Below, piece by piece: positions 4,448 through 22,897 of a stretch of DNA of 64,000 bases; the stretch's first letter is position 1; each line of letters begins with the position of its first letter. The notes under the pieces were generated by a model, which did not search any database, had not been told where the DNA came from, and saw only the letters and a list, made by a program, of their open reading frames with translations. The DNA comes from an uncultured Actinomycetota bacterium (GTDB lineage: Bacteria > Actinomycetota > Actinomycetes > S36-B12 > UBA10799). A program made the translations under genes and the position numbers. The stretch is taken from assembly GCA_963733395.1 (NCBI GenBank), contig CAVTCZ010000009.1, positions 166,245 through 230,244 of the forward strand, given 5' to 3'.

Positions 4448-5886
4448 CAGGACGACTCCAACGCGGCGACGGCGGCGGCGAACTCCCGGCCCCGCTGCGC
4501 GTAGTCGGTGAACATGTCCCACGAGGCGCACCCCGGGGCCAGCAACACCGTATCCCCAGGCTGTGCCGCACCAGCCGCTCGTCGCACCACTTCCCGCATT
4601 GCTCCAGTGTCCGTGGCGGCCACCTCTTCGACCGGCACATCCGGTGCGTGTCGCTGCAGTGCCTCGCGGATGAGCCCCCGGTCGGCCCCGAGCAGCACCA
4701 CCGCACGCAGCCGATCGGCGTGGCGCTGCACCAGGTCGTCGAACGTCTGCCCCTTCGCAAGCCCACCTGCGACCCACACCACCGGGTCGTAGGCCCGCAG
4801 CGACATGTCCGCGGCGTGCGCATTCGTGGCCTTCGAGTCGTCGATGTAGAGCACATCGTCGACGCGACCCACCTCGGCGATGCGGTGGGCCGCCGGCCGG
4901 AAGGTGCGCAGGCCGTCGCGGATGTGCCGGGGGTCCACCCCGAAGGATCTGGCCAGGGCCGCGGCGGCCAGTGCGTTGGCGGTCTGGTGCGGCACCGGCG
5001 GATGCACGTCTGCCAACGTGGCCAGTTCCAGCGCATGGGTGGCCCGCTGCGCCACGAACGCCCGGTCGGCCAGGATGTCGTCGACGATCCCGACCTCGGA
5101 GCGACCGGGGATGCCCAGCGTGAAGCCGATCGCCCGGCAGCCCTCGATCACGTCGGCCTGCTCCACCATGCGGATGGTTTCCGGATCCTGCGAGTTGTAG
5201 ACGCACGCCACCTGCGTGCGCTCGTAGACCCGAGCCTTCGCGTCGCGGTAGGCCGCGAAGGAGCCGAAGAAGTCGACATGGTCCTCGGCCAGGTTCAGAC
5301 AGGCCGCGGCGTGGGGGGAAACGGTGTGCACGAACGGCAGTTGCGGCGCCCCGACCTCGACGGCGAGCACGTCGTAGGGCTGCGGATCCAGGACCGTGGA
5401 CACGAGGCTGACGCCGATGTTGCCCACAGCGTCTGTCCGCAGCCCGGCAGCCCGCAGCATCGAGGCGAGCATCAGGGTCGTCGTCGTCTTCCCGTTGGTG
5501 CCGGTGACGAACAGCCAGGGGGCGCCCCCGGGGTCCCGCACCCGCCACGCGAGCTCCAACTCCCCCCACACCGGCATCCCGGCGGCTTGCGCCGCTGTGG
5601 TGATCGGCGCACTCGGCGGCAGCCCCGGCGAGACCACGAGCAGGTCGGCCTCGGGCAGGCTGCGACCGTCCCCGAGACGCACGGTGGCTCCGAGCACCTC
5701 CAGGATCTGCGCCTTGTTCCGCTGTTCGGGACCGTGCGACTCGTCGACGATCACGACATCGGCACCTCGCTGCAGCAGGGCATCGGCGCAGGCGAAACCT
5801 GCGATGCCGATCCCCGCGACGGCGACCCGCAACCCGGACCAGTCGGCGGTACCAGGATTCGGCAGTTGCTTCACAGACGCACCCAT
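4447..5886 (-). CDS. murD: UDP-N-acetylmuramoylalanine--D-glutamate ligase
   Basis: RVAVAGIGIAGFACADALL, then the VTGTNGKTTTT P-loop. Start is ATG 5884-5886; the alternative GTG 5872-5874 would give a GTGA overlap with the mraY stop. Confidence 0.9.
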   Translation of the reverse strand: MGASVKQLPNPGTADWSGLRVAVAGIGIAGFACADALLQRGADVVIVDESHGPEQRNKAQILEVLGATVRLGDGRSLPEADLLVVSPGLPPSAPITTAAQAAGMPVWGELELAWRVRDPGGAPWLFVTGTNGKTTTTLMLASMLRAAGLRTDAVGNIGVSLVSTVLDPQPYDVLAVEVGAPQLPFVHTVSPHAAACLNLAEDHVDFFGSFAAYRDAKARVYERTQVACVYNSQDPETIRMVEQADVIEGCRAIGFTLGIPGRSEVGIVDDILADRAFVAQRATHALELATLADVHPPVPHQTANALAAAALARSFGVDPRHIRDGLRTFRPAAHRIAEVGRVDDVLYIDDSKATNAHAADMSLRAYDPVVWVAGGLAKGQTFDDLVQRHADRLRAVVLLGADRGLIREALQRHAPDVPVEEVAATDTGAMREVVRRAAGAAQPGDTVLLAPGCASWDMFTDYAQRGREFAAAVAALESS

Positions 5887-6939
5887 TCCGCATAGAACAG
5901 CGACAAGGCTGCCGCCACGAACAACGCTTGGACGATCCAGAACCGCACGACGATCGTGACCTCGCCCCACCCCTTCATCTCGAAGTGATGGTGCAGTGGC
6001 GCCATCCGGAACATCCGTTTACCAGTCAGCTTGAAACTGCCGACCTGGCCGATCACCGACAGCGTGATGATGAGGAAGAGGCCACCCATCAACGGCAGCA
6101 ACAGTTCGGTGCGGCTCAGGATCGCCAGCGCCGCGATACCGCCACCGAGACCCAAGGAGCCGGTGTCGCCCATGAAGATCTGTGCCGGCGAGGTGTTCCA
6201 CCACAGGAACCCCACGCACGCTCCGGCCATCGCCGCGGCCACCACCGCGAGATCCAGCGGATCCCGCACGTCGTAGCAGCGGACGAACCGCCCGAACGAG
6301 CAGTTCTGGCCGTACTGCCAGACCCCCAGCAAGGTGTACGCCATGAACGTGATCGCGCTGGCGCCTGCCGCCAGTCCGTCCAGGCCATCGGTCAGGTTGA
6401 CGGCGTTGGTGGAGGCGGTGATGAGGAACCAGATCCAGATCAGCAGCAGTGCCGTCGGCAGCACGATCGGTGTGTCCCGGACCAGGGACACGGCGTTCGA
6501 CGCCGGTGTCCGGCCGTACTCGTCGGGCCACAGCGTGGTGCCGTAGGCGAAGGTGAGCGCGACGAGGGCCTGCCCGATGAGTTTGGTCCGGGCCCGGATG
6601 CCGGTCGAGCGCTGCTTGAAGATCTTCAGGTAGTCATCGGCGGCACCGACCAGGCCCAGGCCCACGATCAGGTATATCGCCAAGCAGGCCCGAAGCCGAT
6701 GGCGCTTGCCAGACATACAGGTGGGACAGGGCGTAGCCCACGACCAGGGCGATGAGGATGGCCAGGCCGCCCATGGACGGGGTTCCGCGCTTACCCTCGT
6801 GCTCCGGGTAGGGAACACCCTCGGTGGAGACGCGGATCGCCTGCGAGTATCCGTGGCGTTGCAGGAACCGCATGAGCAGCGGGGTGCCCAGCAAGGTGAC
6901 CAGCAGCGCGATCAGCCCCGCGATGACTACCAGTTTCAC
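5871..6939 (-). pseudogene. mraY: Phospho-N-acetylmuramoyl-pentapeptide transferase MraY, split by a net +1 nt frameshift near 6680
   Basis: The N-terminal 75 aa (MKLVVIAGLIALLVTLLGTPLLMRFLQRHGY...KRGTPSMGGLAIL...ASGLL) are in ORF 6634..6939. The rest (AIYLIVGLGLVGAADDYLK...NAVNLTDGLDGLA...FMGDTGSLGLGG...MAPLHHHFE) is in ORF 5871..6818. Total span is 1069 nt, which is 3n+1. Confidence 0.9.
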
Positions 6940-8309
6940 GCGTCATCCCCCAGCAGCGCTTGCGCGACCTGCTCGAGGCCGATCGCGCGAGAGGCCTTGA
7001 CCAGGACCACGTCATCGGGCCGCACCTGCTCCTGCAGGACGGCCACCGCCTGCTCGACGGTGTCGACGGCCATCGACTCGTCCCCCCAGGAGCCTTCGTG
7101 CGCCGCCCCCATGTGAATCGGCCGGGCGCCGTCACCGACGGCGATCAGATGGGAGATGTTCAACCGCACGCACAGCCGGCCGATCGCGTCGTGCTCGACC
7201 GCCGAGGTGGGACCGAGTTCTCGCATCTCCCCGAGCACCGCCCACGTGCGCCGGCCCCGGCCGATCGCGGCGAGGGCCCGCAGCCCGGCGGCCATGGATT
7301 CCGGGTTGGCGTTGTACGCGTCGTTGATGACCGTCACCCCGGCAGCGGTCTGGCGCACCTCCATGCGCCACTGGCTGTCCAGCGAGACCCCCTGCAGGCT
7401 CCCGGCGGCTTGGACGAAGTCGAGTCCGAGGGCCACCGCCGCGGCCACCGCGGCCGCGATGTTGGCGCCCTGGTGCTCGCCGTACAGGGCCGGGCGGATC
7501 TGCACGCGGTCGTGACCGTGCTGCAGAGTCACCACCGGCCGGCCGCCGTCGAGGTCGAGCGCAGTGACCCGGACGTCCGCCCCGGGGGCGTGACCGAATG
7601 TGATCACCCGGCCGGGTGCCCGGTGCGCCTGGGCCATCACGCGCTCGTCGTCGGCGTTCAGCACCGCCACGCCCTCGGGTCCCAGTGCCGACAGGATCTC
7701 GGCCTTCGCCTCGGCGATCCCCTCCCGGCTGCCGAACTCCGACAGGTGCGCCTGCCCGACGTTGAGGAAGATGCTGACATCAGGCGGGGCGATCGTGCAC
7801 AGGTATCCGATGTGCCCCTTGCCCCTGGCCCCCATCTCGGCCACCAAGTAGCGCGTCGATTCGGTGACCTCGAAGACGGTCCGCGGCAGCCCGAGTTCGT
7901 TGTTGAAGGACCCCTGGGGCGCGATGGTCGGCGCGAAGGACGACAGCACGACCCGCAACAGGTCCTTGGTGCTGGTCTTGCCCGAGGAGCCGGTCAGTGC
8001 GACCACCCTCAGCTCGGGACAGGCACCGATGACGGCCCGGGCCAAGCGGCCGGCGGCGACGACGGTGTCCTCGACCAGGATGTGCGGGCCCGTCACCTCG
8101 CTGCTGACCAGGGCCGCCGGGCAGCCGCCGGCCAGCGCCTGGCCGACGTGATCGTGGCCATCGTGGCTCTCGCCGACGACGGCGACGAACAATGCCCCGC
8201 CGGTTGCTTCCCGGGAATCGGTCACCACGGAGGTGACGACCTGGTCCGGTTCCCCGCGCAGCGATCCACCGACCGCCGCAGCGACTTCAGCCAAGGTCAT
8301 CGCGATCAC
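6936..8309 (-). CDS. murF: UDP-N-acetylmuramoyl-tripeptide--D-alanyl-D-alanine ligase
   Basis: 457-aa ORF with the LTGSSGKTSTKDL P-loop. Overlaps the murE stop and the mraY start, as in a coupled operon. Confidence 0.92.
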   Translation of the reverse strand: MIAMTLAEVAAAVGGSLRGEPDQVVTSVVTDSREATGGALFVAVVGESHDGHDHVGQALAGGCPAALVSSEVTGPHILVEDTVVAAGRLARAVIGACPELRVVALTGSSGKTSTKDLLRVVLSSFAPTIAPQGSFNNELGLPRTVFEVTESTRYLVAEMGARGKGHIGYLCTIAPPDVSIFLNVGQAHLSEFGSREGIAEAKAEILSALGPEGVAVLNADDERVMAQAHRAPGRVITFGHAPGADVRVTALDLDGGRPVVTLQHGHDRVQIRPALYGEHQGANIAAAVAAAVALGLDFVQAAGSLQGVSLDSQWRMEVRQTAAGVTVINDAYNANPESMAAGLRALAAIGRGRRTWAVLGEMRELGPTSAVEHDAIGRLCVRLNISHLIAVGDGARPIHMGAAHEGSWGDESMAVDTVEQAVAVLQEQVRPDDVVLVKASRAIGLEQVAQALLGDDA

Positions 8310-16668: not shown

Positions 16669-17076
16669 TCAGGAGTCGCGGCCGTCCCGGCGGTTGCGGT
16701 CCTGCCAGCGCTGCTCGAACCTGGCCATGAAACCGGACTGACCCTTCGCGGGCTTCGGCGCCGCGGACGGCGCAGCTCCGGGCACCGAGTCGGCTGCCGC
16801 TTTCTTGGACGGTGCGTGACGCAGGCCCGAGATGACCAGGAACACCGATGCCAGCATCACGATGAATCCGAAGACGCCGAGCGGGGGAAGACTGGCCGAG
16901 ACACCCGCCAGCAGTAGTGCCATGCCGACGAGGGCTCCGATGACGCCGCCCACGACCCGTCGGCGATCGGCCCCGGACGAACCGTGTCGCAAGGACGTGG
17001 CGAACTTCGGATCCTCGGCCATGAGGGCCCGTTCCATCTGCTCGAGCAGTCGCTGCTCATGCTCTGAGAGAGGCAC
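16669..17076 (-). CDS. DUF3040-type small membrane protein (Rv2169c-like)
   Basis: GTG 17074-17076 is preceded by GGAGGGAAGG. (V)PLSEHEQRLLEQMERALMAEDPKFATSL is followed by a TM segment, the typical DUF3040 layout. Confidence 0.75.
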   Translation of the reverse strand: MPLSEHEQRLLEQMERALMAEDPKFATSLRHGSSGADRRRVVGGVIGALVGMALLLAGVSASLPPLGVFGFIVMLASVFLVISGLRHAPSKKAAADSVPGAAPSAAPKPAKGQSGFMARFEQRWQDRNRRDGRDS

Positions 17077-17176
17077 GTTCCTTCCCTCCTTGCGGTCTGG
17101 TAACTGTAACGATACGGGTAGGCGCCCCGGATGGAAACCCGAGAGGGTCCACAACTTGTTCAAGGCCGGAATCAGA

Positions 17177-18412
17177 TCAACGTTCCTCCTCCGAATGACC
17201 CATGTCGAGCAGGCTGGCCGGGCGCACAACCCCGCGCCCGAATCTGGCCACCGCCCGGTCCACCGCCGTCTCCGCCTCCCGCCACCCAGCGTCCGGTTCG
17301 TCGAGGGCGATCTGGTGACTTGCGTCGTGCGCCGGGCGCAACTTCTCGACCCGTACCCCCACCAGTCGTAGCCGGGCGCGCTGCAGGCCGAGCGCCTGGT
17401 AGAGGTCCGCGGCCACGGCGTAGATATCGCGGCCGACGTCGGTTGCCTCTGGCAATGTCTTGGACCGGGTCAGCGTGGTGAAGTCCGCGAACCGGACCTT
17501 GATCGACACCGTCCGGCCCACCCAGCCAGCCGCCCGAAGTCGGGCCGCCACCGCATCGGACAGCCCCAACAACTGCCGCGCGATCACCTCCTGATCGTCG
17601 ACATCACCGGCGAAGGTGTGCTCCGAACCGATGCTTCGATCGGGAGTGGCAGAACTGACCTGGCGGCTGTCCCGGCCCCAGGCGAGTTCGGCCAGGTGGT
17701 CCCCGGCCGCAGGTCCCAGCGCCCGCCGCAACACCGGCCGCGGCAGATGGGCGACATCGGCCACGGTGCGCACCCCGAGACTGTGCAGTTGCTCCTCCGT
17801 TCGCGGTCCGACGCCCCACAGGGCACCGACCGGCAGCGGGTGCAGGAAGGCCACGATCGAATCCGCCGGGATCAGCAGCATCCCATCCGGCTTGGCGTGG
17901 GCGCTGGCCACCTTGGCGACGAACTTGTTCGGTGCCCCGCCCACCGAGCAGGTGATCCCCTGCTCGTCGTGGACCCGCGCCCGCAGCAGTTCGCCGATGG
18001 CGGCGGGGGTGCCGAACTGCCGGATGGCCCCGGAGATGTCGAGGAACGCCTCATCGAGGGACAACGGCTCCACAGCCGTGGTGATGGAGCCGAAGATCGC
18101 CATCACCCCCTCGCTGACCCGCGCGTAGTGGCGATGGTCGGGCGCGATCACCGCCGCCTCAGGGCACAACCGACGGGCCCGTCCCATGGACATGGCCGCC
18201 CGGACTCCGAAGGCGCGGGCCTCGTAGGTGGCCGACAGCACCACGCCGCGGGAACCGGAACCGCCGACGATGACGGGCTTGCCCCGAAGCATGGGGCGGC
18301 TGAGCAACTCCACGGAGGCGTAGAACGCGTCCATGTCCACATGCAGGATCGTGCATGTGGAATCGTCGCGCGGCGCTGGGAAATCCAGCTTGCCGCTCTC
18401 GCGTCTGCTCAT
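17177..18412 (-). CDS. dinB: DNA polymerase IV (Y-family), catalytic residues intact
   Basis: 411-aa ORF with ILHVDMDAFYASVE and PLSLDEAFLDIS motifs (catalytic Asp/Glu present). Lies 15 bp downstream of the dnaE2-type gene. Confidence 0.9.
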   Translation of the reverse strand: MSRRESGKLDFPAPRDDSTCTILHVDMDAFYASVELLSRPMLRGKPVIVGGSGSRGVVLSATYEARAFGVRAAMSMGRARRLCPEAAVIAPDHRHYARVSEGVMAIFGSITTAVEPLSLDEAFLDISGAIRQFGTPAAIGELLRARVHDEQGITCSVGGAPNKFVAKVASAHAKPDGMLLIPADSIVAFLHPLPVGALWGVGPRTEEQLHSLGVRTVADVAHLPRPVLRRALGPAAGDHLAELAWGRDSRQVSSATPDRSIGSEHTFAGDVDDQEVIARQLLGLSDAVAARLRAAGWVGRTVSIKVRFADFTTLTRSKTLPEATDVGRDIYAVAADLYQALGLQRARLRLVGVRVEKLRPAHDASHQIALDEPDAGWREAETAVDRAVARFGRGVVRPASLLDMGHSEEER

Positions 18413-18427
18413 CGATGTCCTCCTCCC

Positions 18428-21400
18428 CTAGCCTGCACTGCCCGGACTGGAGTGCCACAGCTTCGGCGGCCGTTTCGACGACGATCCCGCCGGCCGGGTG
18501 TCCGCGTACGGCGACTGCCGGAACCCACTGGCATGGACCAGCACCCTGCGCACAGCCGGGTCCGAGGTACCGGTGTCCTGCGTCGGATCCTCCATCCGGT
18601 CCGGTCCGGCCAGCATGTCCACCGGCGTGTTGATGATCTCGTACACCCCGGCCACGCCCTTGCGTCTCCATGCCGCGTGCAGATCCGGCAGGGACCAGCA
18701 CCCGGTGGCCCGCACCGAGATCCCCCGTCGGCCGGTCCTGCGGATCACACCGGTGGCCAGCAACAGCCAGGAGTGGAACACCGTGTGGGCGTAGGGGCCC
18801 TGAGCGTCCTCGAAGAACGTCAGGTCGATCGGTCCGGTGGAGTCGTCCAGCGACAAGAAGATGACCCGTCGCCCGCTGCGGATCGGCGGGGTCTGGGTCG
18901 CCACCTTGATGCCGGCCACCAGGACCTGCGCCTGCGAGCGGTGGGCCAGCAGATCCTTGGACCGCACCACACCGAGTTCGGTGAACATCTGCTCGTAGAA
19001 CGAGATGGCATGCCGGGTCACATCGAGGCCGAGGATCTCCACTTCCGCCTCCACCCGATCGGCCGCGGTCATCTCGGGCAAGCCGCTGGGCGGCTCGGGC
19101 TCGGACAACGGCAGGACCAACTGGGCGGGGCCTGCGGCGTACACCTTCGGCGCCTGTGATTGCGCAGCCACCTGCTCGGCGAGCCCGGTACCGCCCACCT
19201 GTTGCTTGGCGTTGCGCCGGACCCGGCGCCGACCCCCGGACCGGTGAAGATCCGCGATCTGCAGCAGCAGGTCGCGGCGGGTCACGTGACCGATGCGGCG
19301 CGCCCCGGTGATGTCGTACATCGTGTCGAATCCGCCGGCGCGCACCAACCGCTCCACGACCGGCCGGGACACCGGCGTGCGCGACCAGAAATCGGCGAGG
19401 TCCACGAACGGCTGGGACACCTCGATCTGACGGATCTCCACGTCGTTGATCCCCTTCACATCCGCCAGCGACAGCCGGATGCCATAGGTGTCCGCCACCT
19501 TCTCCACCCGGTACTGTCCGCTGGATTTGTTCACGTCCAGCGGCAGCACCACAACCCCGCTGTTGCGGGCCTCGTCGAGGATCAACCGCTTCGGGTACAT
19601 CCCCGGGTCATGGGTGAGCACCCCGGCCAGGAACGCCGCCGGGTGGTGTCGCTTGAGCCAGGCGGAGTGGTAGGTCGGCAGCGCGAAGGCCGCGGCATGA
19701 GCCTTGCAGAACCCGAAACTGGCGAAGGCCCGCAACACCTCCCAGACCTTCTCGACGGTTGCCAGGTCGTAGCCCTTCTTCAGCGCCTGCGGGATGAACC
19801 AGGTCCGGACCTGGATCTGTCCATCCGGGGTGCCGAGTTGCCGGCGGACCTCGTCGGCCTCAGCCAGGGAACACCCGCTCATGACAGACACCAGCCGCAA
19901 CACCTGCTCGTGGAACACCACCACCCCATGGGTCTCCCGCAGCGCGGGTTCCAGATCGGGGTGCAGGTGCAGCGGCTCCCGCCAGCCGTGCCGGGCGGAC
20001 AGGAACGGCGTGATCATGTCGCTCTTCACCGGCCCGGGCCGGAACAGCGAGATGTCGATGATCAGGTCGTTGAAGTCGCGCGGGCCGAACTTGCCGATCA
20101 GCTCCCGCTGCCCCGGCGACTCGATCTGGAAGCAGCCGAGCGTCTTGGCCTTCTGAATGAGGTCGAAGGTGTCCTGATCGTCGAACGGCAGGTCGTCGAG
20201 GTCGACCTCGACGCCGTCCACCCGGCGCACCTCAGTCACCGCATGGGCCATCGCCGACTGCATGCGGATGCCCAGCACGTCGAGCTTCAGGAAACCCATC
20301 GCCTCCACGTCGTCCTTGTCGAAGTGACTCATCGGGAAGCCCATCCAGCTGGCCTCCACCGGGGTCCGGTCCAGCAACGAGGAGTCCGACAGCAGCACGC
20401 CGCAGGGGTGCAGGGCGATGTGCCGGGGCAGACCGTCGAGCGCCTCCACGAAGTGCAGGAAGCCGTCCAGCATCCCGCGGTCGGCGAGTTTGCCCACCAC
20501 CGAGGTGCGCACCTCGGGCAGTTCGGCCACCGCCGCCCGGGCATCGCGGGCACGGATGTGTGGGAAGGCCTTGGCGAAGTCGTCGATCTCGCCGGCCGGG
20601 AAGCCCAGTGCCGCCCCCACATCGCGAATCGCGTGTCGCACCTTGTAGGTGTCGCGCATGCTCACACAGGCGCTGCGGTGCGCCCCGAACCGTTCCACGA
20701 TCCGCCGGTAGATATCTGTGCGGCGCGCCGACTCGACGTCGATGTCGATGTCCGGCAGCGCCCGCCGCAGCGGGGACAGGAACCGCTCCATGAGCAGGTC
20801 GTGGCGGATGGGGTCCACCCCGGAGATGCCCAACAGGTAGTTCACGACACTGCCGGCCCCGGATCCCCGCGCGGCCACCCGCACCCGCATCGCGCGGATC
20901 AGGTCCACCACCTCCGCAACCGTGAGGAAGTATCCGGCGAAACCGAGGGTGGCGATGACACCGAGTTCGTCGTCGAGGCGCTGCCGGGCGGGCGCCACCT
21001 CCCGGGGCAGGAACCTCGTGTGCAACGCGGCCTCACAGCGGGCCCGCAGCAGGGCATCGGCGCGCACCGCCTCGACCCGGCGCTGGGCATGGCGGTGGCG
21101 GCGGGCGGCGTACCCGACCATCGCGGGTCCGGTGGGTTCGGCCGGCGGCCTGCCCGACAACAGGACATCGAGTTCCGGGACGTGGATGTCCCCGATGCCG
21201 AAATCCGCCACCGGGTCCAGCACACACTCCCCGGCCAGGTCGGCGGTCACCCCGAGCAGCCGGCCGGCCTCGGATCCCGCGACCTGTTCGGCGATGCCCT
21301 GCATATGACTGGCCGGCGCCAGGAAACCGCCGGAGTTCTCCCGGTCGAGATGCCGGGAGTCCAGCGGCACCAGCCGCCGGATGGCATCCAGCAGGTCCGC

Positions 21401-22102
21401 GGTCGACGCCTGCCGGGGATGGACGTACCGTGCCGCGTTGGTCAGCACCGCCGGGACGCCACGCTCGCGGGCGTAGGTCCACATCCGGCGCGCCATCGCG
21501 GTGGACAGGTCCGGTCCGGGCCGGTCCTCCCCGATCCCGCGGGGGGCGGTGCGGTGGTTCACGATCTCGAGGTACACCCGGTTGCCCGCCACCTGCCGCC
21601 AGCGGTCCAGCAACCGGTCGGCAAGGTCGAACCGGTGCCGACTGATGGCCCGACCCACCTGCGAGTCGGGACCCAGCAACACCCGCAGATCTCCGGGCAC
21701 CACGAACTCCTCGAGCAGACCCCAGTCCACCGTGGGGTTGCCTCGCTCCCCAGCGGTGTGGGCGGCCGATACCAGCCGGCTCAACGCCGACCAGCCCCTG
21801 CCGCCGGAAGCCAGCAGCACCATGCGCGGATGCCGCAGGTCACGCCAGGCGCCACCCCGGGTGGGGGTGCGCGCCGCTACCGGCGGGGCATCGGGGCGCT
21901 GGGCCAGGTCCGAGCCGAGGATGCCGTCGATGCCGTGTTCCATGCAGGCCTGCATGAACCGGACCGCGCCGTACAACCCGTCCCGGTCGGTCAGCGCGAT
22001 AGCCGGTTGGTCCAACTCCACGGCCCGCTGCACCACCTCCTGCGGGGCGCACACACCGTGCCGCAGGGAGTAGTAGGAGGCGACGTGGAGATGACTGAAC
22101 AT
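18428..22102 (-). CDS. dnaE2: Error-prone DNA polymerase III alpha-type subunit (DnaE2-like)
   Basis: 1224-aa ORF. The PHP N-terminus HLHVASYYSLRHG...LTDRDGLYGAVRF is DnaE2-like rather than DnaE1-like. It has the PDIDIDVE palm motif. It sits in an SOS-box-preceded operon with dinB. Confidence 0.85.
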   Translation of the reverse strand: MFSHLHVASYYSLRHGVCAPQEVVQRAVELDQPAIALTDRDGLYGAVRFMQACMEHGIDGILGSDLAQRPDAPPVAARTPTRGGAWRDLRHPRMVLLASGGRGWSALSRLVSAAHTAGERGNPTVDWGLLEEFVVPGDLRVLLGPDSQVGRAISRHRFDLADRLLDRWRQVAGNRVYLEIVNHRTAPRGIGEDRPGPDLSTAMARRMWTYARERGVPAVLTNAARYVHPRQASTADLLDAIRRLVPLDSRHLDRENSGGFLAPASHMQGIAEQVAGSEAGRLLGVTADLAGECVLDPVADFGIGDIHVPELDVLLSGRPPAEPTGPAMVGYAARRHRHAQRRVEAVRADALLRARCEAALHTRFLPREVAPARQRLDDELGVIATLGFAGYFLTVAEVVDLIRAMRVRVAARGSGAGSVVNYLLGISGVDPIRHDLLMERFLSPLRRALPDIDIDVESARRTDIYRRIVERFGAHRSACVSMRDTYKVRHAIRDVGAALGFPAGEIDDFAKAFPHIRARDARAAVAELPEVRTSVVGKLADRGMLDGFLHFVEALDGLPRHIALHPCGVLLSDSSLLDRTPVEASWMGFPMSHFDKDDVEAMGFLKLDVLGIRMQSAMAHAVTEVRRVDGVEVDLDDLPFDDQDTFDLIQKAKTLGCFQIESPGQRELIGKFGPRDFNDLIIDISLFRPGPVKSDMITPFLSARHGWREPLHLHPDLEPALRETHGVVVFHEQVLRLVSVMSGCSLAEADEVRRQLGTPDGQIQVRTWFIPQALKKGYDLATVEKVWEVLRAFASFGFCKAHAAAFALPTYHSAWLKRHHPAAFLAGVLTHDPGMYPKRLILDEARNSGVVVLPLDVNKSSGQYRVEKVADTYGIRLSLADVKGINDVEIRQIEVSQPFVDLADFWSRTPVSRPVVERLVRAGGFDTMYDITGARRIGHVTRRDLLLQIADLHRSGGRRRVRRNAKQQVGGTGLAEQVAAQSQAPKVYAAGPAQLVLPLSEPEPPSGLPEMTAADRVEAEVEILGLDVTRHAISFYEQMFTELGVVRSKDLLAHRSQAQVLVAGIKVATQTPPIRSGRRVIFLSLDDSTGPIDLTFFEDAQGPYAHTVFHSWLLLATGVIRRTGRRGISVRATGCWSLPDLHAAWRRKGVAGVYEIINTPVDMLAGPDRMEDPTQDTGTSDPAVRRVLVHASGFRQSPYADTRPAGSSSKRPPKLWHSSPGSAG

Positions 22103-22105
22103 CGA

Positions 22106-22507
22106 CTATCCCGCAGTCGACCAGGAGGGGATCGGCAGTCCCACCCCGAGGATCGCGGCGATCTGCTCGAGGAACGCCTCAGCATCGCGCACGAGGTCGT
22201 CGGCCTGCCGCTGGGTCACATGTTCCCGGCCGATCTCCACGAAGATGCGGCGACGGCCGATCGCGTCGAAGTAGGCACACCACTCCCCCAACTCGGGGGC
22301 GATCGTCGGCACCATCTGCCAGACGCTGCGGATGCGCGACGACCGGGTCGGCTTGGCCCGCGTGGCCAGCAACGCCGCGCCCGCCCGCAGCGCCGCCACG
22401 TGCGCGGCCACGTAGCGGTCGGCGGGAGCGGTCGCCTGATAGGCGTCGTCGAGGGCGATCAGCGCGGTGCGCAGCAGATCTTTGCCGGCATGGGTCAGAG
22501 CAGCCAT
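22106..22507 (-). CDS. Small all-helical HEPN-like protein (resembles proteins annotated as SAV_6107-family HEPN)
   Basis: 133-aa ORF ending 3 bp before the dnaE2 start. It has an R-x4-H motif (RYVAAH, aa 31-36) and Ala/Leu-rich helices. The family assignment is from memory of similar annotations, not from a search. Confidence 0.6.
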   Translation of the reverse strand: MAALTHAGKDLLRTALIALDDAYQATAPADRYVAAHVAALRAGAALLATRAKPTRSSRIRSVWQMVPTIAPELGEWCAYFDAIGRRRIFVEIGREHVTQRQADDLVRDAEAFLEQIAAILGVGLPIPSWSTAG

Positions 22508-22519
22508 TGCAGTGTCCTC

Positions 22520-22801
22520 TCAGTCGAAGGTCCGCAGCAGGTACCACTGCCCCGCTGCCGGGTCGAAGCTCAAGTCGTAGACGCCACGCGCCGTGCATCG
22601 ACCGGCGGATGCCTCCACCCGCCAGGTCTGCAGGTCGCACCCGGTGGGGGTCGCACTGACGTCCTTCCACCACACCGCGGACTTGTCCCACTGCTGCAAC
22701 ACGTGATCCACCCGGTACAACCGGTCACGCCAGATGAACTGCTCGGGGGACCCGCCCCCGGCACATTTGACGTCGACGGCCCGGTCATAGGAACGACTCA
22801 T
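22520..22801 (-). CDS. Small Trp-rich protein (DUF6504-like), first gene of the damage-inducible operon
   Basis: ATG 22799-22801 is preceded by GGGAGGTG. MSRSYDRAVDVKC...FIWRDRLYRVDHVLQQW...VWWKDV...TWRVEASAG...GVYDLSFDPAAGQWYLLRTFD. The track start (GTG 22861) lies upstream of the predicted promoter, so I trimmed it. Confidence 0.65.
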   Translation of the reverse strand: MSRSYDRAVDVKCAGGGSPEQFIWRDRLYRVDHVLQQWDKSAVWWKDVSATPTGCDLQTWRVEASAGRCTARGVYDLSFDPAAGQWYLLRTFD

Positions 22802-22825
22802 GAAGCACCTCCCGTTCGTCGTGGA

Positions 22826-22841
22826 TCGAACTTTTGTTCGA
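22826..22841. promoter_or_regulatory. LexA (SOS) box, perfect actinobacterial consensus
   Basis: TCGAACTTTTGTTCGA matches TCGAAC-N4-GTTCGA exactly. It lies 25 nt upstream of the ATG at 22801 and overlaps the predicted -10 element. Confidence 0.85.
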
Positions 22842-22860
22842 TTACAGTCGAACACTGACA
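22839..22860 (-). promoter_or_regulatory. RecA-NDp / PafBC-type DNA-damage promoter motif
   Basis: The minus strand reads gTGTCAGTG-ttcgactg-TAATCG, versus the mycobacterial motif tTGTCRgtg-N8-TAnnnT. All positions match except the last T. Confidence 0.6.
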
Positions 22861-22881: not shown

Positions 22882-22897
22882 TCGAACATATGTTCGC
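22882..22897. promoter_or_regulatory. Second LexA box (one mismatch)
   Basis: TCGAACATATGTTCGC, located in the divergent region between the mutasome-like operon and the MFS gene. Confidence 0.75.

What the first reader, a model, noticed from the sequence alone, without database searches (positions are those of the whole stretch)
22520..22801. The 93-aa Trp-rich protein looks like a free-standing version of the ImuB C-terminal module
The sequence ...FIWRDRLYRV..QQW....VWW.......TWRVEA......GVYDL..D...GQWYLLRTFD recalls, from memory, the conserved C-terminal segment of ImuB proteins (a WP..ERWW ... R.Q/RVE ... W.LL/VE..YD pattern). That segment is the part implicated in ImuA'/DnaE2 interaction. 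If the resemblance is real, this operon would encode a split ImuB: the interaction module as a small protein and a catalytically competent Y-family polymerase (DinB) as a separate gene. This rests on pattern resemblance only and I could not align the sequences.
Basis: inference. Interest (0 to 1): 0.6.

Follow-up and report, generated by a model that had tools for sequence, protein, structure and literature searches.

The report
Free-standing ImuB-C domain, already described
The 93-residue tryptophan-rich protein really is a free-standing copy of the C-terminal domain of the mutagenesis protein ImuB, but this kind of operon in Actinobacteria has already been published, so the finding is correct and not new.

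Summary
The minus-strand ORF at 22520-22801 encodes a 93-aa protein with six invariant Trp residues. It matches Pfam DUF6504 (58 bits, cut-off 24.2).

The same Pfam model scores above its cut-off on the C-terminus of a genuine ImuB in an imuA-imuB-dnaE2 cassette, and it is pre-annotated on many proteins named "protein ImuB". A profile-profile comparison with ImuB C-termini gives P=1e-4, about 8 SD above shuffled controls. The protein is 34% identical (E=1e-14, full length) to Tessaracoccus lapidicaptus VEP41449, which Timinskas & Venclovas (NAR 2026) label "ImuB-C" in their DnaE2B-PolY-[ImuB-C]-RecA module.

The window fits that module:
- Two LexA boxes precede the operon.
- DinB keeps its catalytic residues and has a RecA-N-terminus-like tail.
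- The genome has no ImuA, no ImuB and no other Y-family polymerase.

Free-standing ImuB-C has been in the literature since 2013, so novelty is low.

One thing appears undescribed. The HEPN_SAV_6107 gene between imuB-C and dnaE2 is conserved in this position across the class. In other genomes it travels with DinB alone or with canonical imuA'-imuB-dnaE2.

The parts
22520..22801 (-). imuB-C: 93-aa free-standing ImuB C-terminal-domain protein (Pfam DUF6504)
   Evidence: PF20114 at 58 bits. 34% identity, E=1e-14, to the published ImuB-C VEP41449. AF2 model is all-beta, with six strands, pLDDT 81.7.
22106..22507 (-). HEPN_SAV_6107-family protein, 133 aa, with no conserved Rx4-6H motif; starts 12 bp after imuB-C ends and ends 3 bp before dnaE2
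   Evidence: PF18726 at E=6.5e-30. Present in this position in 67 of 71 related loci. R31-Y32 are conserved but H36 is not.
18428..22102 (-). dnaE2: C-family error-prone polymerase, 1224 aa
   Evidence: PHP, DNA_pol3_alpha, finger, HHH_6 and OB domains. NCBIfam error-prone DNA polymerase subfamily, below its cut-off. It is the second DnaE copy in the genome.
17177..18412 (-). dinB: Pol IV, 411 aa, catalytic residues intact, with a RecA-N-terminus-like C-terminal tail
   Evidence: NF003015 at 395.6 bits against a cut-off of 367. HVDMDAFYASVE and SLDEAFLD are read directly from the sequence. Tail consensus across 52 sequences: GWReA.rAvDrA.aRFG.g.VrPAsL. It is the only PF00817 match in the genome.
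22826..22841 (.). LexA (SOS) box 1, TCGAACTTTTGTTCGA, a perfect palindrome 25 nt upstream of the imuB-C start codon
   Evidence: One of only 5 perfect matches in the 3.69-Mb genome. A box lies upstream of the DUF6504 gene in 65 of 69 related loci and in 0 of 69 control segments.
22882..22897 (.). LexA box 2, TCGAACATATGTTCGC (1 mismatch)
22808..22813 (-). Shine-Dalgarno sequence GGGAGG for imuB-C
   Evidence: Read directly from the sequence.

Best explanation
The 93-aa protein is a free-standing member of the ImuB-C domain family. It is the first gene of a LexA-repressed operon, imuB-C / HEPN_SAV_6107 / dnaE2 / dinB. The locus is an instance of the published actinobacterial DnaE2B-PolY-[ImuB-C]-RecA module, which occurs in genomes lacking ImuA and ImuB. 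Proposed mechanism: after DNA damage, LexA cleavage de-represses the operon. The small beta-domain protein then binds the PHP domain of DnaE2, as the ImuB C-terminal domain does in the modelled mycobacterial mutasome, and couples DnaE2 to DinB. DinB would supply the candidate clamp-binding motif and the RecA-N-terminus-like tail that docks RecA. The resulting complex carries out damage-induced, error-prone lesion bypass. Shown here: family membership, homology to the ImuB C-terminus, operon structure, LexA boxes and their conservation, intact DinB catalytic motifs, and absence of ImuA, ImuB and other Y-family polymerases. Inferred from the literature: the physical contacts and the mutagenic output.
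For: PF20114 matches both the window protein (58 bits) and the C-terminus of a genuine ImuB (25.2 bits, above cut-off). 'Protein ImuB' entries carry PF00817+PF20114. The PF20114 control search scores above cut-off in Caulobacter vibrioides, but the hit could not be located. hhalign gives P=1.1e-4 over 79 columns, with a score of 31.5 against a shuffle null of 11.9+-2.4 and a maximum of 18.3. BLASTP against the published ImuB-C VEP41449 gives E=1e-14 over the full length. The AF2 model is all-beta (pLDDT 81.7) and has no PDB neighbour (best Foldseek E=1.4), which agrees with the paper's statement that ImuB-C is a beta-barrel of novel fold. Gene gaps are 12, 3 and 15 bp. There is a perfect LexA box 25 nt upstream of the start codon, conserved in 65 of 69 loci, and recA of the same genome carries TCGAACAGGCGTTCGG. 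No ImuA or ImuB was found by tblastn. The genome has one PF00817 match and one RecA. The DinB tail resembles the RecA N-terminus, with 11 of 1000 shuffles reaching the score, and is conserved in 52 sequences. The order DUF6504-HEPN-DnaE2-DinB is conserved in relatives from Nanopelagicales, Dermatophilaceae, Kineosporiaceae, Nocardioidaceae and Propionibacteriaceae.
Against: No binding or mutagenesis data exist for this protein or any close relative; the contacts rest on published AlphaFold-multimer models and on two-hybrid work with mycobacterial ImuB. The sequence link to ImuB-C is moderate, not strong (hhalign probability 57%). It is undetectable with beta-proteobacterial and actinobacterial ImuB C-termini. 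My full-length ImuB model was too poor (pLDDT 46) for a structural comparison. The published tetramer model omits the HEPN protein, which is conserved in the operon, so the real complex may differ. The genome is 94% complete, so absence of imuA and imuB is not absolute.
Confidence: 0.85

Rival explanations
1. The protein is an ImuB-C family member, but it acts mainly as a sensor of damaged DNA, a non-catalytic DNA-binding domain that recruits polymerases to lesions (as proposed by Aravind et al. 2013), and not as a protein-protein adaptor for DnaE2.
For: Aravind et al. proposed this on the basis of conserved basic residues and the variety of repair partners, including Ku/ligase and SplB photolyase operons that have no polymerase. 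The window protein has invariant R27 and R61 and nearly invariant R25, R30 and R68.
Against: In this class the gene lies immediately upstream of dnaE2 or of HEPN-dnaE2 in almost every locus. The 2026 AlphaFold-multimer models place ImuB-C on the DnaE2 PHP domain and report a good tetramer for the orthologous Tessaracoccus system. No known DNA-binding fold was detected.
Confidence: 0.12
2. The operon is literally a split ImuB: an ancestral fused ImuB underwent fission into a Y-family gene and an ImuB-C gene.
For: Gene content parallels the two halves of ImuB. The 2026 paper uses the words 'split ImuB' for a different module made of an inactive PolY, ImuB-C and DnaE2X.
Against: DinB here passes the curated Pol IV model (395.6 bits against 367), keeps its catalytic Asp/Glu residues and is the only Y-family polymerase in the genome. 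It therefore looks like the ordinary housekeeping Pol IV and not a former ImuB N-terminus. It lies at the far end of the operon, not next to imuB-C. Actinobacterial ImuB C-termini are not detectably closer to DUF6504 than proteobacterial ones. Timinskas & Venclovas argue the opposite direction, fusion of PolY with a free-standing ImuB-C.
Confidence: 0.05
3. The resemblance to ImuB-C is chance or convergence between small Trp-rich beta proteins, and DUF6504 is unrelated to ImuB.
For: My own HMM built from actinobacterial DUF6504 proteins scores only 10 bits on Novosphingobium ImuB. First hhalign runs with shallow alignments gave P=0.003-0.07. There is no signal against actinobacterial ImuB.
Against: The curated Pfam model passes its own cut-off on ImuB and is pre-annotated on many ImuB entries. 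The alignment is collinear over the whole domain and lies about 8 SD above shuffled controls. The gene context is the same (dnaE2, LexA). Independent published PSI-BLAST and HMM analyses reached the same unification.
Confidence: 0.03

Closest known systems
DnaE2B-PolY-[ImuB-C]-RecA module of Actinobacteria (Timinskas & Venclovas, NAR 2026, PMC12926913); exemplar Tessaracoccus lapidicaptus VEP41449 / VEP41450 / VEP41451
   Same: A small free-standing ImuB-C protein (34% identity, E=1e-14) lies upstream of DnaE2, followed by an apparently active PolY. The PolY C-terminal tails are nearly the same (...ALDEP..GW..AE.A(V/I)D.AV.RFG...). The genome lacks ImuA and ImuB. Both are actinobacterial.
   Different: The window, and 67 of 71 related loci, carry a HEPN_SAV_6107 gene between imuB-C and dnaE2. 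The paper and its stored supplements never mention this gene. The three consecutive Tessaracoccus accessions suggest that no such gene is annotated there.
C-terminal domain of ImuB in the canonical ImuA(ImuA')-ImuB-DnaE2 mutasome (M. tuberculosis, Caulobacter, Pseudomonas)
   Same: It is a homologous domain (Pfam PF20114 hits both; hhalign P=1e-4). It is all-beta, has a conserved C-terminal Trp and conserved Arg residues, and is SOS-regulated with DnaE2.
   Different: Here it is not fused to an inactive Y-family domain. There is no ImuA partner and the associated Y-family enzyme is catalytically intact. Similarity to the actinobacterial type of ImuB C-terminus could not be shown statistically.
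lexA-imuB-C-polY operon of Geobacter sulfurreducens (GSU0042-like free-standing ImuB-C; Aravind et al. 2013, PMC3765255)
   Same: A free-standing ImuB-C is co-transcribed with an active Y-family polymerase under SOS control.
   Different: The Geobacter operon has no DnaE2 and no HEPN gene, and it includes lexA itself.
UmuD' of Pol V and YolD/YqjX of Bacillus YqjW
   Same: By analogy only: a small beta-rich accessory subunit of an SOS-induced Y-family polymerase complex that also uses RecA.
   Different: The fold is unrelated (an SH3-like core versus the ImuB-C barrel, according to PMC12926913). There is no autoproteolysis and no homology.

Membership tests
ImuB-C superfamily / Pfam DUF6504 (PF20114) | Significant match to the family profile | tested here: met
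   58 bits, E=1.2e-15, cut-off 24.2, covering residues 14-93.
ImuB-C superfamily / Pfam DUF6504 (PF20114) | The profile also recognises the C-terminal domain of genuine ImuB proteins | tested here: met
   Novosphingobium ImuB in an imuA-imuB-dnaE2 cassette scores 25.2 bits, above cut-off, at residues 403-475 of 479. Agrobacterium ImuB scores 17.3 bits, below cut-off. 'Protein ImuB' entries carry PF20114. hhalign P=1.1e-4, about 8 SD above shuffles.
   hhalign P=0.054 with 4 sequences from L151-L153 and L159. Proteobacterial ImuB-C against actinobacterial ImuB-C is equally weak, P=0.067. PF20114 does not hit the L159 ImuB.
ImuB-C superfamily / Pfam DUF6504 (PF20114) | About 80-100 residues, predominantly beta-strand, with no close PDB neighbour | tested here: met
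   The AF2 model has six strands and one short helix, pLDDT 81.7. Best Foldseek PDB hit E=1.4. No hit in the PDB sequence search.
ImuB-C superfamily / Pfam DUF6504 (PF20114) | Highly conserved C-terminal Trp and at least two conserved basic residues (Aravind et al. 2013) | tested here: met
   W86, R27 and R61 are invariant; R25, R30 and R68 are nearly invariant. They align with W and R of the ImuB C-termini.
ImuB-C superfamily / Pfam DUF6504 (PF20114) | SOS / translesion-polymerase gene neighbourhood | tested here: met
   It lies in an operon with dnaE2 and dinB. LexA boxes are present and conserved in 65 of 69 loci.
ImuB-C superfamily / Pfam DUF6504 (PF20114) | Physical binding to DnaE2 (PHP domain) and to the Y-family partner | not testable with these tools
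   No multimer modelling or experiment is available here. The published AF-multimer tetramer for the Tessaracoccus orthologue is noted in the supplement as 'good tetramer complex modeled'.
DnaE2B-PolY-[ImuB-C]-RecA module (NAR 2026) | DnaE2 in a genome without imuA or imuB | tested here: met
   tblastn with 4 ImuA and 5 ImuB queries found only the DinB. There is a single PF00817 match and one RecA plus one weak RecA-like hit. The genome is 94% complete.
DnaE2B-PolY-[ImuB-C]-RecA module (NAR 2026) | Apparently active PolY carrying a RecA-N-terminus-like motif | tested here: met
   The DMD...SLDE catalytic motifs are intact. The Pol IV model is passed above cut-off. The C-terminal tail aligns with the genome's own RecA N-terminus at p of about 0.01, is conserved in 52 sequences, and matches the Tessaracoccus PolY tail.
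DnaE2B-PolY-[ImuB-C]-RecA module (NAR 2026) | DnaE2 belongs to the DnaE2B clade | not tested
   No reference DnaE2A/B/X tree was built. Indirect evidence only: 28-30% identity to DnaE2 proteins next to imuB genes against 48-55% identity to DnaE2 proteins of DUF6504-linked loci.
Canonical ImuA-ImuB-DnaE2 mutasome | An inactive RecA paralogue (ImuA/ImuA') and a catalytically dead Y-family protein fused to ImuB-C | tested here: not met
   No ImuA or ImuB is present. The Y-family enzyme is intact and not fused.

The most novel reading that the evidence does not exclude
The HEPN_SAV_6107 protein encoded between imuB-C and dnaE2 may be an undescribed, non-catalytic accessory subunit or regulator of actinobacterial SOS polymerases, possibly filling the scaffold role that ImuA' has elsewhere. 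Supporting observations: it is present in 154 of 201 sampled genomes of the class. In 85 of 91 genomes that have both genes, it lies directly downstream of the DUF6504 gene. In genomes without a DUF6504 match it still sits next to DinB, next to imuB-dnaE2, or directly upstream of imuA'-imuB-dnaE2 (L159). It lacks a conserved Rx4-6H motif. No paper in the searchable library links HEPN with DnaE2 or ImuB-C.
Probability: 0.4. Interest if true: 0.55.

Novelty: already known. Interest (0 to 1): 0.2.

Why it matters
The finding confirms that a tools-free reading of the sequence recovered a genuine remote homology. It adds no new biology, however. Free-standing ImuB-C proteins were described in 2013, and the exact actinobacterial arrangement (DnaE2 plus an active Y-family polymerase plus ImuB-C, without ImuA or ImuB) was catalogued and modelled in 2026. 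The practical value is in annotation: 'DUF6504 family protein' next to dnaE2 should be read as ImuB-C. The open question raised by this locus is the role of the conserved HEPN_SAV_6107 gene. If that protein is a subunit, published models of these alternative mutasomes are incomplete.

Tried and rejected
- **PDB sequence search** with the family profile found only noise (Nup358, E=0.13).
- **Foldseek** of the AF2 model against the PDB found nothing below E=1.4. This is uninformative, apart from agreeing with the published 'novel fold'.
- **Profile search of 1.8 billion representatives.** The 150 listed hits are all small free-standing proteins, so any ImuB fusions further down the 1056 hits could not be seen.
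- **My own HMM** from actinobacterial DUF6504 proteins against five ImuBs scored only 10 and 7 bits on the two alphaproteobacterial ones. hhalign with shallow alignments gave P=0.003-0.07. Significance appeared only after adding about 90 more diverse DUF6504 sequences.
- **AF2 model of full-length Novosphingobium-type ImuB**, intended for comparing domain topologies, was poor (pLDDT 46) and was not used.
- **Actinobacterial ImuB C-termini** (L151-L153, L159) gave no significant HMMER or hhalign signal.
- **The 425-aa open frame ending in a DUF6504 domain in L030** was considered as a possible ImuB-like fusion. Pfam found only DUF6504 in it, and the frame starts at a contig edge in high-GC sequence, so it was left undecided.
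- **Catalytic HEPN RNase reading** (RYVAAH as an Rx4-6H motif) was rejected: H36 is not conserved among 68 family members, and the 2013 HEPN survey also lists this family as lacking the motif.

Full report
**Observation.** The minus strand carries four co-directional genes separated by 12, 3 and 15 bp:
- a 93-aa ORF at 22520-22801
- a 133-aa ORF at 22106-22507
- a 1224-aa DnaE-type polymerase at 18428-22102
- a 411-aa DinB at 17177-18412

The 93-aa reading (ATG at 22801, GGGAGG 6 nt upstream) is supported by homologues that all begin MSR/MR. It has six Trp residues, all invariant among 20 homologues. Pfam assigns it to DUF6504 (PF20114, 58 bits, cut-off 24.2). It assigns the next gene to HEPN_SAV_6107 (E=6.5e-30), and the two polymerases to DnaE and IMS families. 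NCBIfam places DinB above the Pol IV cut-off.

**Is DUF6504 the ImuB C-terminal domain?** Four independent lines say yes.

1. *The Pfam model hits ImuB.* I retrieved a genuine imuA-imuB-dnaE2 cassette from Novosphingobium plasmid pHR1a. PF20114 matches residues 403-475 of its 479-aa ImuB at 25.2 bits, above the curated cut-off. Agrobacterium ImuB scores 17.3 bits. The control search rings above cut-off in Caulobacter vibrioides, although I could not locate that hit. Numerous proteins that sources name 'protein ImuB' carry precomputed PF00817+PF20114.
2. *Profile-profile comparison.* I compared 263 free-standing DUF6504 sequences with ImuB C-termini from five proteobacterial genera (the alignment was mostly close sphingomonad sequences). 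The result is a collinear 79-column alignment with P=1.1e-4 and score 31.5. One hundred column-shuffled controls gave 11.9+-2.4 (maximum 18.3), and the reversed alignment gave 12.5. The aligned blocks are P..F.WRGR.Y.V / WW / (Y/W)RVE / a C-terminal W.(L/M)...(F)(D/A).
3. *Structure prediction.* The AF2 model (pLDDT 81.7) is a six-stranded all-beta domain with no PDB neighbour. This matches the description of ImuB-C as a beta-barrel of novel fold in PMC12926913.
4. *The published exemplar.* Supplementary data of that paper list the Tessaracoccus lapidicaptus 'ImuB-C' protein VEP41449, used in a 'good tetramer' AlphaFold-multimer model of DnaE2B-PolY-ImuBC-RecA. The window protein aligns with it end to end at 34% identity, E=1e-14.

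There are limits to this evidence. PF20114 does not hit beta-proteobacterial ImuBs or an actinobacterial ImuB. hhalign against four actinobacterial ImuB C-termini is not significant (P=0.054), although proteobacterial against actinobacterial ImuB-C is equally weak.

[quoted passage not shown] One actinobacteria-only group is associated with an apparently active PolY bearing a RecA-NT motif, a free-standing ImuB-C, and RecA. The window agrees on each point:
- tblastn with four ImuA and five ImuB queries finds nothing but the operon's DinB.
- PF00817 has a single genomic match, which is this DinB.
- There is one RecA.
- DinB keeps HVDMDAFYASVE and SLDEAFLD.
- The DinB tail, consensus GWReA.rAvDrA.aRFG.g.VrPAsL over 52 sequences, resembles the genome's own RecA N-terminus (ALDQAIAQIDKQFGKGSVMRLG). 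Only 11 of 1000 shuffles reach the score, and the tail matches the Tessaracoccus PolY tail.

**Regulation.** A perfect actinobacterial SOS box, TCGAACTTTTGTTCGA, lies 25 nt upstream of the start codon (22826-22841). A one-mismatch box lies at 22882-22897. The whole 3.69-Mb genome has only five perfect boxes. recA of this genome carries TCGAACAGGCGTTCGG. A box with at most one mismatch lies upstream of the DUF6504 gene in 65 of 69 related loci (57 of them perfect), against 0 of 69 equal-length control segments inside dnaE2.

**Distribution.** A scan of species-representative genomes returned 71 loci from Nanopelagicales, Dermatophilaceae/Intrasporangiaceae, Kineosporiaceae, Nocardioidaceae, Jiangellaceae, Propionibacteriaceae and others. 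Nearly all have the order DUF6504 - HEPN - DnaE2 - (0 to 2.4 kb) - DinB. In other classes of the phylum, the DUF6504 gene lies directly upstream of DnaE2, mostly without a recognisable HEPN gene.

**Literature.** Free-standing ImuB-C was defined by Aravind et al. 2013 (PMC3765255). Timinskas & Venclovas 2019 linked it to variant mutasomes lacking ImuA (PMC6511836). The 2026 survey catalogued and modelled this exact actinobacterial combination (PMC12926913). 'Split ImuB' in the sense of fission is not favoured, for three reasons. DinB is an ordinary Pol IV orthologue. It is the sole Y-family enzyme of the genome. The literature argues that ImuB arose by fusion.

**Beyond the finding: the HEPN gene.** None of the three polymerase papers, nor the stored supplements of the 2026 paper, mention HEPN, SAV_6107 or PF18726. 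No paper in the library combines HEPN with DnaE2 or ImuB-C. The 2013 HEPN survey lists the SAV_6107 family as actinobacterial, without the Rx4-6H motif and without a known context. The data here show a strong association:
- PF18726 is present in 154 of 201 sampled genomes of the class, almost always as a single copy. PF20114 is present in 115 of 201.
- In 85 of 91 genomes listed for both, the DUF6504 hit lies immediately upstream of the HEPN hit on the same strand, with a median of 134 bp between the domain hits.
- I inspected 20 genomes with HEPN but no PF20114 hit. Seven have HEPN-(methyltransferase)-DinB. One has HEPN-DnaE2-DinB. Three have imuB-dnaE2-HEPN. One (L159) has HEPN directly upstream of imuA'-imuB-dnaE2. 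Eight show no polymerase within 5 kb.
- An alignment of 68 members keeps R31-Y32, R41, R50, W63, PEL.EW, R100 and ADDL.R, but no histidine. A catalytic RNase role is therefore unlikely.

One caveat applies. Part of this linkage may be inherited synteny upstream of the DUF3040-mraZ (dcw) region. Whether HEPN_SAV_6107 is a subunit or regulator of these polymerases cannot be decided with the tools at hand.

**Verdict.** Interest is low for the finding as stated. The conserved HEPN partner is the one lead worth following.

Noticed in passing
window 22106-22507 (minus); loci L036-L106, L114-L163: HEPN_SAV_6107 (PF18726) is a near-single-copy gene in 154 of 201 genomes of the class. It is linked to translesion polymerase genes in several layouts: imuB-C/HEPN/dnaE2/dinB, HEPN-(methyltransferase)-dinB, imuB-dnaE2-HEPN, and HEPN-imuA'-imuB-dnaE2. 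No paper in the searchable library mentions this link.
   Followed up: partly
L159:4437-10276 (+): In a 7.5-Mb actinomycete genome, the HEPN_SAV_6107 gene ends 6 bp before an ImuA'-like gene (5394-6092). This is followed by a 596-aa ImuB (5914-7704, ending ...GGRWWVEASYD) and DnaE2. This is a canonical mutasome cassette with the HEPN gene as its first member.
   Followed up: partly
L144, L148-L150, L154, L163; window 16669-17229: In genomes without imuB-C and dnaE2, the HEPN gene is followed by a conserved SAM-methyltransferase-like gene, then DinB and/or a DUF3040-like gene (…RWQRRRD…). The window has the same DUF3040-like ORF downstream of dinB. The whole block therefore occupies a syntenic position near the dcw cluster across the class.
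   Followed up: partly
whole genome G000: The DinB of this operon is the only Y-family polymerase detectable in the 94%-complete genome. The cell's sole Pol IV is therefore encoded in the same LexA-box operon as DnaE2.
   Followed up: yes
G000 C19:704477, C5:299910, C4:56051, C13:135099: Other LexA boxes with at most one mismatch lie just upstream of paralogous genes starting MSEIPSMVSPGLGAVVGRLRACDDQALLESLQ… or similar. These look like DUF222/HNH '13E12-repeat'-type proteins, a family I recall as SOS-regulated in mycobacteria. They were not checked against Pfam.
   Followed up: no
window 22839-22860 (minus): The minus strand reads TGTCAGTG-N8-TAATCG, overlapping LexA box 1. From memory of the consensus tGTCRgtg-N8-TAnnnT, the last base here is G, not T. 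Conservation in related loci was not examined.
   Followed up: no
L030:2-1276 (+): In a genome of another class of the phylum, the DUF6504 domain sits at the end of a 425-aa open frame that runs from the contig edge and is followed directly by DnaE2. It may be an ImuB-like fusion or a high-GC artefact; Pfam sees only DUF6504.
   Followed up: partly
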